Position numbers: made by a program. Of a stretch of 64,000 nucleotides of DNA, positions 54,001 to 57,000 are shown piece by piece; position 1 is the first letter of the stretch; each line of letters begins with the position of its first letter. Source of the stretch: Mizuhopecten yessoensis (lineage: Eukaryota); NCBI RefSeq assembly GCF_002113885.1, contig NW_018406841.1, positions 1 to 64,000 of the forward strand. Direction: 5' to 3'.

Positions 54001-57000
54001 AAGTAATATTAAGCTCACGAGTTCACATTACAAAGATATGTAATATGTATCTCATCAAATTGTTCAACTTTGGGGACGACATCTAATATTTGTATTGCAC
54101 TATATCTGCATCTGCAGATGCAACTATACTATCTATATGATACACTCATTGTGATTAGTGTTTTTTTTAAATTTATAGCAAATATTACCATTTAATTTTA
54201 AAATTCACAATTTTCATTCTTGATTACGAATATACATAAAATTCCACCGGATTATTTGCTACCCCAGATGTGTGTACTATGTATCACGTATTTTGTGACA
54301 ATATCACTTTTTCTTTTTAGCTTCGAAACAACTAAGTAGCGTTTCTTGTATGTTTATATAACACTGTTCCTTGGCAAATACACGTAAAAACAATAATATA
54401 GTGTTATATTTACATTTGCGCTGCAACCCACTATATAAAGATTACCAGCAGTAATCCATTTCATTTGGGTATGAAAGCAAAAACTCTTGTGACGTAGCAC
54501 GTGGTTTACATATCTCAAATATAGCAGTTGGCAGCTTACAGCCTCACGGAATAAACAATAATTATAAAATAATATAATATAGGCTTTATTTGTTCTTGAT
54601 AACATATTGAGCATGAAGCTCATCTTATATATGGTCAAGATACAGTATATGATATAATGTACAATATTTACAGCTTTAAGAAATATACATGTATAAGAAG
54701 AATTCATAAATCATTTCGAGTAAAATTGCTTTGCAGATCTCTTAAATTCTAAAAGAACAATTTCTAATATCACTCGGTAAAAGATTCCATGTAAGGGGTC
54801 CCTGATATCTAAAAGATTTTCCAAAAATGTTTGTCTTATGACATGGCAAGTAAAACACATTGGTAGATGATGATCTTGTAGTTCTACTCTGAACATCCGA
54901 CATATACGTAAAATCATTCAAATTTTGCGGAGCTAAATTATTAAGTATCTTGTACATAAAAACCACTTGATTGTATAACATTCTTTTGTGAAAAAAATAA
55001 ACATACCTGCTGTGAGACTTTGAAAATTCTTTTTCTTTCAACTACACTTATGGTATATCATACATTATATTGGTATTCCAAATATCTTTTATGTAATATT
55101 CTGCCGTATAAAAGGTCAGAATTTCGTGTAAGTCATACTGGCAATTTTACTATTTTATCAAAACCGTTATCATGGAACTGGGTCAAATGCAACTAAATAT
55201 TGATTATAGCGTGAACAATGAATTGTAACTCCAGGCCGATAGGAAGAAGCAACAACAGAAATTGATCGGATATCAGTTAAATCAAAACTAAAAGAAAAAT
55301 CAGAATCCCCCTAGAAAAATATCGATGGTAAATTTGATCGCCTTTGAGTTTCTATCTTGTCTTCGTGTATTGACGCTGTGGTGTGTTTCTTTTTCACTTG
55401 TTAACCCTAGCACTTCCATATTCCCAGATTTATGGTTTTGTAACAATGGTCATGGTACACTTGCTGCACCAAAGAAATTACAAACTTTATTTCTTGGTAT
55501 CAATATTAACAGTTGGAAATTACAGGTTCGTATTTCTGTCCACCATTCGCAACGTATACAGTAAAACCTAGATAAAATGCCACTTATTTCATTGGCCACC
55601 CCGTTTACTGCCAATATATTTCACACTTCCCTCAATCTATTGTCAAGCCCTTTTATAATGCCAATACTTCTCTGGAATAATGGTGGCATTATAACGAGGT
55701 TTTGCTGAACACCAACTTAAACAAATCTGTAGTACACGAAAGAAGTTAGGGCTGACTAAGAACCAAAGTGGTAATAATGTTCAAATATGTACAAGTTTAT
55801 ATATATTCTAAATACATTTTTTAACGCAAATTACAATAAAGTCACAAATTGTTTGTAATATTTTTCAGCAAACACACATTGCCAATTTAAATATTTATGT
55901 TCATTCTAAAATTTCGTAAGGAGTAACAAGCATTATCCATACAATCCAATCAACAATGTTGAAATATTTTCATTGTATTACTACGCTTCCCTTTACGTAA
56001 TCTGACACGTCGTGTCTGTCCTTATGTAGAAATGTTCGTTAGGTAAAGTTATTCATAATCAGTGTATGCATCATTTACAATAATTGATTCCACCTTTAGA
56101 TTTAACATTATTATCTTTACGTATTTCTTAGAAGAAATTGTGTCCGATGTTATTCCATAAAGCAATACACTATTTACTTAAGAGATTCAAATACTTACTA
56201 TGAACATGACATATCACCAAAACAGTTGTCTCATTTTTTGTGGTCTAATGAAACATTGTGCAGAAGCAATACACAAAACTTCACTTAGACCATTCAGATC
56301 CTATATATATATAAACCATGATATAAAACAGAGACCACAATGGAATTTCGTTTGTCTGATGAAAGGATTTGGGGTGAACTTCTGGTGTACAGAATATGAA
56401 TATGTGGTATTTATGATTCCATCGCTGTATTGACGAACATCTGTCCAGTAGAGGTGTCGGCGTACAGGTTGGGAGGTTCCACCCGGGAGAGATCTAGACT
56501 GTCATAATGGACAGGGTTTGGTGACGTCATGACGGCTTCAGTATACTCTGGCTGTTTCACGAGTGCAAGTCTTCTGCAAATATGATTTTCAAGCTTATTC
56601 CGGTTCTTGATATCGTAATGTTTTACCTCGGTGGGTAAAAAGTCTTCAAAAGGCAATGTAAATATCAAAATGTATATAGGAATTTGATCTCAAATCAGTT
56701 CAAATACAGAACTTGATAATGAAAATGATACGAAATTATTTAATTATTTTCGTCAATGTGTAGTTAATTTCAAAACAGATACCATTGAGAAAAAGTGTCA
56801 TAAATAGATCAAGTATCCATTCTAAATGGTGCTATGAAGGATAGCCTGTTAACGTCAAAGGAAATATGTGATAAGTAACATAATTCTGTACCATGCTACT
56901 TACTTTCTATAAAGGATAACATGGACTACCACGGTTACAGTAACCAGTAGTGAGGTAACTACTAGAGGGACGACTACAGCACCTGGAAAATATACATATT

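What the first reader, a model, noticed from the sequence alone, without database searches (positions are those of the whole stretch)
56411..56573. Stepwise loss of signalling tyrosine motifs across paralogs, including a natural Y-to-F change
B has YDSL/YEEM/YVNT. D has YDSL/YADT/YVNT (second ITAM-half and YxxM lost). F has YDSL/YADT/FVNT (Grb2-type Tyr changed TAC to TTC). D and F tails otherwise differ only by R-to-G three residues upstream. VHYDSL is invariant in all three, so F may be a purely inhibitory version (inference).
Basis: partly seen in the sequence, partly recalled or inferred. Interest (0 to 1): 0.68.

Follow-up and report, generated by a model that had tools for sequence, protein, structure and literature searches.

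The report
Scallop receptor paralog lost one tyrosine
In a cluster of uncharacterised scallop cell-surface receptor genes, one apparently intact copy has a single-base change that turns a family-wide conserved signalling tyrosine into phenylalanine, while the copy read as the intermediate step is a dead gene.

Summary
The window comes from the Yesso scallop Mizuhopecten yessoensis, not from a human. It holds six paralogs (A-F) of an unnamed single-pass receptor-like family. Three last exons on the minus strand encode YDSL/YEEM/YVNT (B), YDSL/YADT/YVNT (D) and YDSL/YADT/FVNT (F). D and F differ at two bases in 163, and 56436 makes TAC into TTC.

- D is a pseudogene, with TGA at codon 4 and a 7-nt frameshift deletion.
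- YADT also occurs in two Pecten maximus genes, so it is an old, conserved state, not recent decay.
- Gly three residues upstream is the older state, and Arg arose in D.
- B's pair is ITAM-like only (spacer 10, Met at +3).
- F keeps two further tyrosines.

F matches an annotated open 316-aa protein. Its tail exon is far more conserved between D and F than the non-coding flanks (1.2% against 11.0%). The YxN tyrosine is present in 11 of 12 surveyed genes, and F is the exception.

Most likely F is a working paralog that lost its Grb2-type docking site. "Purely inhibitory" is untested. Allele status and expression could not be checked.

The parts
56411..56573 (-). Gene F (LOC110452985) last exon: 1 split-codon base, 53 codons and TAA. 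It encodes the cytoplasmic tail.
   Evidence: Identical to the C-terminus of P0004.
56435..56437 (-). Codon TTC (Phe46 of the exon) where D and 10 other family genes have Tyr. The differing base is 56436.
56444..56446 (-). Codon GGA (Gly) where D has CGA (Arg). The differing base is 56446. Gly is the older state.
56495..56512 (-). VHYDSL, which fits the ITIM consensus [ILVS]xYxx[ILV].
   Evidence: VHYDSL occurs in 9 of 12 genes, VVYDSI in 2 and ATYDSL in 1.
56453..56464 (-). YADT, the second conserved tyrosine, 10 residues after YDSL.
56534..56545 (-).
56904..56982 (-). Gene F transmembrane exon (AVVVPLVVTSLLVTVTVVVHVILYRK), open.
   Evidence: Matches P0004.
57567..63546 (+). GC-rich insertion of about 6 kb carrying a reverse transcriptase, in the F intron between the stalk and TM exons and antisense to F. 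It is absent from D. A single N sits at 57567.
   Evidence: GC 0.48-0.54. D/F similarity jumps across it. RVT_1 scores 68.3 bits against a cut-off of 29.6. 112-nt inverted repeats lie at 57941-58052 and 63366-63477.
63582..63857 (-). Gene F Thr-rich stalk exon, open.
   Evidence: 100% match to P0004 residues 145-237.
37912..38074 (-). Gene D last exon (YDSL/YADT/YVNT), open.
40642..41009 (-). Gene D ectodomain exon with a 7-nt deletion between 40752 and 40753. The deletion removes a conserved Cys codon and shifts the frame.
43766..43816 (-). Gene D exon 1 (signal peptide). Codon 4 is TGA (43805-43807) where C has TGG and F's protein has Trp.
9891..10053 (-). Gene B (KP79_PYT06802) last exon (YDSL/YEEM/YVNT). 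All five B exons match P0010.
46942..50991 (+). Gene E (KP79_PYT06804). It has the same ectodomain type as C, D and F but a different tail made of repeated TPSGDIYAQVE units.

Best explanation
Gene F (LOC110452985) is most likely a working member of a scallop-specific cluster of receptor-like genes that evolves by gene birth and death.

The proteins share one plan:
- a signal peptide;
- a six-cysteine beta-sandwich ectodomain of about 120 residues with no named family;
- a Thr-rich stalk;
- one membrane helix;
- a tail of about 54 residues carrying three register-conserved tyrosines.

The three tyrosines are Y1 in V-H-Y-D-S-L, Y2 ten residues later (YEE[IM] or YAD[TM]), and Y3 in Y-x-N near the C-terminus.

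After the D/F duplication, a single A-to-T transversion in F turned Y3 (TAC) into Phe (TTC). Phe cannot be phosphorylated, so F can no longer present a pYxN site of the kind that Grb2/Drk-type SH2 domains bind. It keeps Y1, which fits the ITIM consensus, as well as Y2 and the clade-specific YTEA tyrosine. F is therefore a rewired or attenuated signalling variant. It is not shown to be purely inhibitory.

Shown here: the sequence states, the direction of change, D's two disabling lesions, and the strong conservation of the tail exon.

Inferred: that Y3 is phosphorylated and binds a Grb2-type adaptor, that Y1 recruits a phosphatase, and that F is expressed.
For: - Phe in F is a single-base difference from D inside a 230-nt stretch (37859-38088 in D coordinates) that has no other change except the Gly/Arg codon.
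- Y3 is Tyr in 11 of 12 genes with this tail type, from M. yessoensis, P. maximus, Argopecten irradians and one unnamed source. These include P0035, the P. maximus gene with the same tail type as F.
- YxN also recurs in more distant relatives: YENM and YVNM in P0019, YVNP in P0026.
- The tail exon is not decaying. D and F differ at 2 of 163 exon positions against 302 of 2737 aligned non-coding positions (Fisher p 4e-6; binomial 1e-6).
- The part of F in the window is open: stalk, TM and tail exons. The database's own model for F is an open 316-aa protein whose ectodomain matches the family profile over positions 1-117 at E 2e-32.
- pYxN binds Grb2, and a Tyr-to-Phe mutant abolishes the signalling effect in the vertebrate ITT motif (PMC4263166, passages read).
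- ITAM-Syk and ITIM-SHIP signalling have been reported in a bivalve, the oyster (PMC6994640 and PMC11841013, passages read).
Against: - No phosphorylation, binding or expression data exist for any family member. Literature searches found nothing on these genes.
- One substitution in 163 nt hitting one of four Tyr codons is not statistically remarkable. My own arithmetic puts it at roughly 15% for two hits.
- Two amino-acid changes and no synonymous change cannot show positive selection.
- Near-identity of the exon with no synonymous difference, extending 54 nt into the 3' flank and 14 nt into the intron, could instead reflect recent gene conversion. In that case the low divergence says nothing about constraint.
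- The protein model for F comes from the same contig as the window's other genes (contig length 1,081,329 for P0001-P0004 and P0010), so it is no independent confirmation of base 56436.
- F carries a 6-kb retroelement in an intron.
- The annotated isoform X2 joins exon 1 directly to the ectodomain exon. It omits the short Cys-bearing segment that P0002, P0006 and P0007 have.
- Single motif matches occur by chance in 11-21% of shuffles.
Confidence: 0.5

Rival explanations
1. The Tyr-to-Phe change has no functional meaning. It is a neutral or slightly deleterious allele of the sequenced individual, or a base-calling or assembly error, in a family whose members are largely redundant.
For: - It is a single base.
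- Tyr-to-Phe is the most conservative replacement for tyrosine (established knowledge).
- No independent sequence of F was available.
- The family has many paralogs within 64 kb.
Against: - The site is Tyr in 11 of 12 genes across three genera.
- The surrounding exon is otherwise unchanged on the F lineage, so the one change falls on one of the most conserved residues.
- A random error at exactly this base is a priori unlikely.
Confidence: 0.25
2. F is itself on the way to becoming a pseudogene, like D. It is unexpressed or mis-spliced because of the 6-kb retroelement in its intron, and the Tyr-to-Phe change is the first sign of relaxed constraint.
For: - The retroelement insertion lies between the stalk and TM exons.
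- The sister copy D is already dead.
- Gene C's annotated protein model has no TM segment or tail, and neither tail type was found anywhere else in the window. Together these indicate rapid turnover in the cluster.
- F's upstream exons lie outside the window.
Against: - All three visible F exons are open, and the annotated model is open over 316 aa with all six conserved cysteines.
- The F lineage has only one change in the tail exon, while the non-coding D-F divergence is 11%.
- An intronic antisense insertion need not disturb splicing.
Confidence: 0.15
3. The tail tyrosines are not SH2 docking sites. They are YxxPhi-type sorting or endocytosis signals (YDSL, YEEM) in mucin-like surface glycoproteins, so the loss of the YVNT tyrosine is irrelevant to signalling.
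For: - YDSL and YEEM fit Yxx[LIMFV].
- The proteins have long Thr-rich stalks, and NCBI named one of them after a yeast cell-wall stress sensor.
- No kinase or SH2 link has been shown.
Against: - Yxx[LIMFV] occurs in 52-67% of shuffled tails, so it explains little.
- The conserved Y-x-N (11 of 12) and Y-A-D-T (5 of 12) do not fit a sorting motif, yet their tyrosines are conserved.
- The fixed 10-residue spacing of Y1 and Y2 in 12 of 12 genes is more typical of a tandem docking unit.
Confidence: 0.1

Closest known systems
Vertebrate paired immune receptor families (KIR, LILR, Siglec, Ly49 and similar; recalled, not tested here)
   Same: - Tandem clusters of type-I membrane genes that evolve by birth and death and include pseudogenes.
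- Similar ectodomains are joined to different signalling tails. Here each of three ectodomain clades holds both tail classes.
- Point losses of tail tyrosines occur.
   Different: - The ectodomain is not an Ig or C-type lectin domain. It has no Pfam family and no convincing structural match.
- The activating-like motif lies in the receptor's own tail rather than in a partner chain.
- The opposing function of the two tail classes is unproven.
Immunoglobulin tail tyrosine (ITT) motif YxNM of mIgG/mIgE, and the YxNM of CD28 and DAP10 (the last two recalled)
   Same: - A C-terminal Y-x-N core: YVNM in P. maximus and A. irradians, YVNT in M. yessoensis.
- In the ITT the YxN core is the conserved part, it binds Grb2, and Tyr-to-Phe abolishes the effect (PMC4263166, passages).
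   Different: No homology of the proteins, and binding of a scallop Grb2/Drk has not been shown. In F the tyrosine is naturally Phe.
Oyster CgIgR (ITAM-Syk) and CgNCAM1 (ITIM-SHIP2)
   Same: Bivalve single-pass receptors with tyrosine motifs in the tail, reported to bind Syk or SHIP2 (PMC6994640 and PMC11841013, passages).
   Different: Those are Ig-superfamily proteins with a 'classical' ITAM or two ITIMs. The scallop family has a different ectodomain, and its Y1-Y2 pair misses the ITAM consensus (spacer 10).
Hydractinia Alr gene family
   Same: An invertebrate cluster of single-pass receptor genes plus pseudogenes, one exon per domain, with ITAM or ITIM motifs in divergent tails (10.1101/2022.03.04.482883, passages).
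   Different: Alr ectodomains are unusual Ig folds. The phylum differs, there is no sequence relation, and Alr has a known role in allorecognition.

Membership tests
ITIM-bearing receptor | Motif [I/L/V/S]xYxx[I/V/L] in the cytoplasmic tail (consensus as quoted) | tested here: met
   VHYDSL occurs once in each of B, D and F. The chance of at least one match in shuffled tails is 11-18%. The motif is conserved as V[HV]YDS[LI] in 11 of 12 genes and is ATYDSL in P0035.
ITIM-bearing receptor | The phosphorylated motif recruits SHP- or SHIP-type phosphatases and inhibits signalling | not testable with these tools
   No binding or functional data. Only the oyster precedent is available.
ITAM-bearing receptor | Yxx[I/L]-x(6-9)-Yxx[L/I] (consensus as quoted) | tested here: not met
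   B has YDSL, 10 residues, then YEEM. Both the spacer and +3 are off consensus. The regex gave 0 matches in B, D and F, even with x6-12. P. maximus and A. irradians have YDSL-x10-YEEI, where only the spacer is off. The pair is ITAM-like at most.
Grb2-type pYxN docking site | Tyr followed by Asn at +2 | tested here: not met
   F has FVNT, so there is no tyrosine. The feature is met in B and D (YVNT) and in 11 of 12 genes overall. Actual Grb2/Drk binding is not testable here.
PI3K p85 pYxxM site | Tyr with Met at +3 | tested here: not met
   Absent from D and F. Present in B (YEEM). Also present as YVNM in four P. maximus and A. irradians genes and as YADM in P0022.
CUB domain (UniRef's name for gene B's protein) | Match to the Pfam CUB profile | tested here: not met
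   The ectodomain exon ORFs of A, B, C, D and E gave 0 Pfam families at E<=0.01. The precomputed Pfam field is '-' for all named homologs but one.
CUB domain | CUB-type jelly-roll fold | tested here: inconclusive
   The AF2 model has pLDDT 78.9 and pTM 0.75 and forms an eight-strand beta sandwich. Foldseek against the PDB gave 0 matches at E<=0.001. The best TM-scores are 0.47-0.55 to Neto2 chains and LAST-MAM and 0.42 to MASP-1 CUB2, with carbohydrate-binding modules scoring similarly by E-value.
Ig-like domain (UniRef's name for gene C's protein) | Match to Ig profiles or an Ig fold | tested here: not met
   No Pfam Ig family. No receptor or adhesion Ig domain is among the listed structural matches; the one antibody-complex entry matches on chain A at TM-score 0.30.
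Paired receptor family | Closely related ectodomains joined to alternative tail types | tested here: met
   In the ectodomain tree of 35 rows, three clades each hold both tail classes. Support is 98/94 and 98/96 for two clades and 85/81 for the third.
Paired receptor family | The two tail types signal in opposite directions | not testable with these tools
   The second tail class (GD[IL]YAQV repeats) mostly misses the strict ITIM consensus. Gene E has none, while P0015 and P0016 have two each.
Processed or unprocessed pseudogene (gene D) | Disabling lesion in a region that is otherwise conserved and coding | tested here: met
   TGA at codon 4, plus a 7-nt deletion and a downstream stop in the ectodomain exon. 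No protein model matching D was returned by three searches (mapping).

The most novel reading that the evidence does not exclude
The window shows part of a scallop-lineage paired-receptor system built on a non-Ig, six-cysteine beta-sandwich ectodomain. Each ectodomain lineage has been coupled repeatedly, by exon shuffling or gene conversion, either to an ITAM-like plus YxN tail or to a tail of YAQV repeats. Within that system F would be a natural Tyr-to-Phe variant that has shed its adaptor-recruiting tyrosine and acts as an inhibitory or decoy counterpart of its Tyr-bearing relatives. This would be an invertebrate, non-Ig analogue of KIR/LILR-type activating and inhibitory pairs.
Probability: 0.2. 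Interest if true: 0.65.

Novelty: new variant of a known kind. Interest (0 to 1): 0.38.

Why it matters
If the tails do signal through SH2 proteins, this cluster would be a non-Ig, mollusc-specific multigene receptor family that evolves in the same way as vertebrate paired immune receptors. F would then offer a ready-made natural Tyr-to-Phe control for dissecting which tyrosine does what.

For the scan itself, the main lesson is a correction. The apparent three-step series mixes an ancient tail subtype (YADT), a dead gene (D) and one recent point change (F). Only the last of these is a new event.

Tried and rejected
- Pfam scan of 39 ORFs. No family was found for any exon of the gene family. 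Only RVT_1 in the retroelement passed its cut-off, and three sub-threshold hits were ignored.
- ESM Atlas search with the ectodomain exon gave no usable hit.
- Foldseek of the ectodomain model against the PDB gave no match at E<=0.001. The CUB-like reading is therefore kept as inconclusive, and the Ig-like reading is dropped.
- Searching with F's tail exon alone found only 3 proteins among 18 candidates. A profile of seven tails was needed to reach 12.
- Literature searches. Scallop + ITAM + ITIM found 0 papers. Six gene identifiers found 0 papers. Two broader searches gave only context papers.
- I rejected the idea that the YADT state is a recent decay step, because it is present in P. maximus.
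- I rejected reading dN/dS from two differences.
- NPxY-type PTB motif: the sequence is NPVHY (N-P-x-x-Y), which does not fit, and the Asn-Pro is absent from B-type tails.
- hemITAM (recalled as needing acidic residues before YxxL): SPNPVHYDSL has none.
- No whole spliced model of my own was built or searched. Exons were searched one by one, and whole-protein comparisons used the database's own records.
- The N stretches (382, 31731-32173, 57567) were left as they are.
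Full report
WHAT THE WINDOW IS

GC content is about 0.33 except for a GC-rich block at 58-64 kb. The ectodomain exon of one gene is 100% identical to a Mizuhopecten yessoensis (Yesso scallop) protein, and the other best hits are from M. yessoensis, Pecten maximus and Ylistrum balloti. The contig is therefore scallop, not human. N runs lie at 382, 31731-32173 and 57567, and I left them untouched.

THE OBSERVATION

The interval 56411-56573 is exactly a last coding exon on the minus strand. It runs from the acceptor AG, through one base of a split codon and 53 codons, to TAA.
- It encodes RLALVKQPEYTEAVMTSPNPVHYDSLDLSRVEPPNLYADTSTGQMFVNTAMES.
- B reads VHYDSL/YEEM/YVNT, D reads VHYDSL/YADT/YVNT and F reads VHYDSL/YADT/FVNT.
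- The D and F exons differ at two bases of 163. Position 56436 gives TTC against TAC, and position 56446 gives GGA against CGA.

THE GENES

Mapping the database's own proteins onto the window and reading the frames gives one plan for every gene:
- a signal-peptide exon;
- a short exon with a conserved TVCSDAVTDGT segment;
- one phase 1-1 exon for a domain of about 120 residues with six invariant cysteines (MC..VV[IV]DT..CxC..P..CGS..C..[YH]C);
- a Thr-rich stalk exon;
- a transmembrane exon;
- the tail exon.

Gene by gene:
- B is KP79_PYT06802 (P0010, 295 aa), and all five of its exons match.
- C is KP79_PYT06803 (P0001). The model has no TM segment or tail.
- E is KP79_PYT06804 (P0003), on the plus strand, with a different tail.
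- F is LOC110452985 isoform X2 (P0004, 316 aa). Its stalk (63582-63857), TM (56904-56982) and tail exons lie in the window.
- F's ectodomain exon lies beyond 64000.
- A has its ectodomain and stalk at the left edge of the window, and its tail lies off the window.

I built no spliced model of my own. Searches were made exon by exon and the joined step was left out.

D IS A PSEUDOGENE

- Exon 1 of D reads ATG ACC TTG TGA, where C has TGG and F's protein has Trp.
- D's ectodomain exon lacks 7 nt between 40752 and 40753 relative to C and E. This removes a conserved Cys codon and shifts the frame into a stop.
- None of three protein searches returned a model matching D (mapping).

The middle member of the proposed series is therefore not a working receptor. 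An intact gene with the same tail state (YADT/YVNT) does exist on another scaffold: LOC110448354 (P0008 and P0009).

F LOOKS INTACT BUT CARRIES AN INSERTION

D and F are a recent segmental duplicate. The matching blocks are 37030-38181 with 55535-56679 at 91.5%, 38182-38935 with 56815-57566 at 86%, and 38935-39434 with 63547-64000 at 84%.

The similarity jumps over 57567-63546. That stretch is GC-rich and carries a reverse-transcriptase ORF on the plus strand (RVT_1, 68.3 bits). It has 112-nt inverted repeats near its ends. It sits in F's intron between the stalk and TM exons, antisense to F.

All visible F exons are open. The annotated protein has all six conserved cysteines and matches the ectodomain profile at E 2e-32. 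That model comes from the same contig as the window's other genes, so it does not confirm base 56436 independently.

CONSTRAINT

In a D-F alignment, aligned non-coding positions differ at 302 of 2737 (11.0%). The exons differ as follows:
- stalk exon: 19 of 276;
- TM exon: 4 of 79;
- tail exon: 2 of 163 (Fisher p 4e-6; binomial 1e-6).

The near-identical stretch is 230 nt long. It reaches 54 nt past the stop codon and 14 nt into the intron.

Two readings are possible. Either the tail exon has been under purifying selection on both lineages, or it was recently homogenised by gene conversion. By my own rough arithmetic, about 40 synonymous sites at 11% would give about 4 expected synonymous differences, and the total absence of any leaves conversion open. 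In neither case is the tail of F visibly decaying.

SURVEY OF THE FAMILY

The ectodomain profile found 27 proteins at E<=0.001 among 1.84 billion representatives. The profile of seven tails found 12 proteins at E<=1. Together with D, these give 12 genes with this tail type:

| Position | States (number of genes) |
|---|---|
| Y1 | VHYDSL (9), VVYDSI (2), ATYDSL (1) |
| Y2 | YEEM (2), YEEI (4), YADM (1), YADT (5) |
| Y3 | YVNT (6), YVNM (4), YANT (1), FVNT (1, gene F) |

Y2 is always 10 residues after Y1's +3 position.

Three conclusions follow:
- Phe in F is derived and unique in this sample.
- YADT also occurs in two P. maximus genes (P0035, P0036). One of these (P0035) has F's tail subtype, so YADT is an old, maintained state rather than a recent loss.
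- Gly at -3 is shared by F, LOC110448354 and P0035.

Each lineage thus has one change since the duplication, and F's falls on the conserved tyrosine.

HOW GOOD ARE THE MOTIF NAMES?

- VHYDSL fits the ITIM consensus.
- The Y1-Y2 pair does not fit the ITAM consensus Yxx[I/L]x6-9Yxx[L/I] as quoted in the Hydractinia preprint. The spacer is 10 residues, and in B +3 is Met. The regex found no ITAM in B, D or F.
- YxN is the Grb2-type core. In the vertebrate ITT motif the YxN core is what is conserved, Grb2 is the partner, and a Tyr-to-Phe mutant loses the effect (PMC4263166, passages read).
- Single motif matches arise in 11-21% of shuffled tails, so it is conservation, not the match itself, that carries the argument.
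- Syk binding to an ITAM receptor and SHIP2 binding to an ITIM receptor have been reported in oyster (PMC6994640 and PMC11841013, passages read). The machinery is therefore plausible in bivalves, but nothing is known for scallop or for this family.

THE ECTODOMAIN AND THE WIDER PATTERN

- No Pfam family matches any exon.
- An AlphaFold2 model built from 14 sequences is an eight-strand beta sandwich (pLDDT 78.9, pTM 0.75).
- Foldseek finds nothing at E<=0.001. The best TM-scores (0.42-0.55) are to Neto2, LAST-MAM and MASP-1 CUB2, with carbohydrate-binding modules alongside. 'CUB-like' is a lead, not a result.
- The Atlas search gave no usable hit.

A tree of 35 ectodomain rows has three clades, with support of 98/94, 98/96 and 85/81. 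Each clade contains both the tail type studied here and a second type built of GD[IL]YAQV-like repeats. Tails and ectodomains have therefore been recombined several times, as in paired receptor families. Whether the two tail types oppose each other is unknown, and gene E's tail has no strict ITIM.

VERDICT

The sequence facts stand. The story of a stepwise loss across three living paralogs does not. It combines an ancient tail subtype, a pseudogene and one recent point change.

The most likely reading (0.5) is that F is a constrained, working paralog that lost a conserved YxN docking tyrosine. Rival readings are a neutral allele or an error (0.25), incipient decay of F (0.15), and sorting signals rather than SH2 sites (0.1).

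Four things stayed unchecked:
- raw reads and other individuals;
- expression;
- F's upstream exons;
- supplementary tables of scallop genome and transcriptome papers.

No paper on these genes was found.

Noticed in passing
window 57567-63546: A GC-rich (0.48-0.54) retroelement of about 6 kb. It has a 511-aa RT-bearing ORF on the plus strand and 112-nt inverted repeats (57941-58052 and 63366-63477, 95% complementary). This layout resembles DIRS-type elements (a recalled resemblance). No recombinase family was found in the ORFs scanned. A single N sits exactly at its left junction.
   Followed up: partly
window 46942-50991 (+), gene E: Gene E has the same ectodomain type as C, D and F. Its tail is 166 residues long and carries three full TP[SG]GD[IM]YAQ[VI]E units about 36 residues apart plus a fourth degenerate one (TPRGDIYSQD). 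The DNA repeat is visible at 50598-50958. The same tail type occurs in Ylistrum balloti and in unnamed relatives, some of which end in LVYAEL or VIYSEV.
   Followed up: partly
window 19000-30731 (-), gene C: The annotated protein for C (P0001, 251 aa) has no TM segment or tail. Its model takes in an exon at 27211-27297 that resembles exon 1 of A-type genes (MDSR..LNVLGYTY). The region 26734-28086 duplicates 3462-4899. The model may therefore be a chimera of two gene remnants, or C may be a secreted or truncated form.
   Followed up: no
window 31364-32545: The 443-N gap (31731-32173) is flanked by direct copies that are 97.8% identical (31364-31730 and 32175-32545). This looks like an assembly artefact around the gap. 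The gap was not filled.
   Followed up: no
window 19290-19712 and 51681-52076: Tandem repeats. One has a period of about 69 bp and lies just downstream of C's stalk exon. The other is a low-complexity stretch that gives long spurious ORFs on both strands.
   Followed up: no
P0004 (protein of gene F), N-terminus: Isoform X2 joins the signal-peptide exon directly to the ectodomain exon. It lacks the short TVCSDAVTDGT segment, with its cysteine, that P0002, P0006 and P0007 carry. Both flanking introns are phase 1, so skipping keeps the frame.
   Followed up: no
P0019 (598 aa, unnamed source): A relative that holds two complete receptor units in tandem in one protein model. Its tails read YVNM, and YENM followed by YEGL-x11-YEVL. 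This is the same three-tyrosine set in a different order.
   Followed up: no
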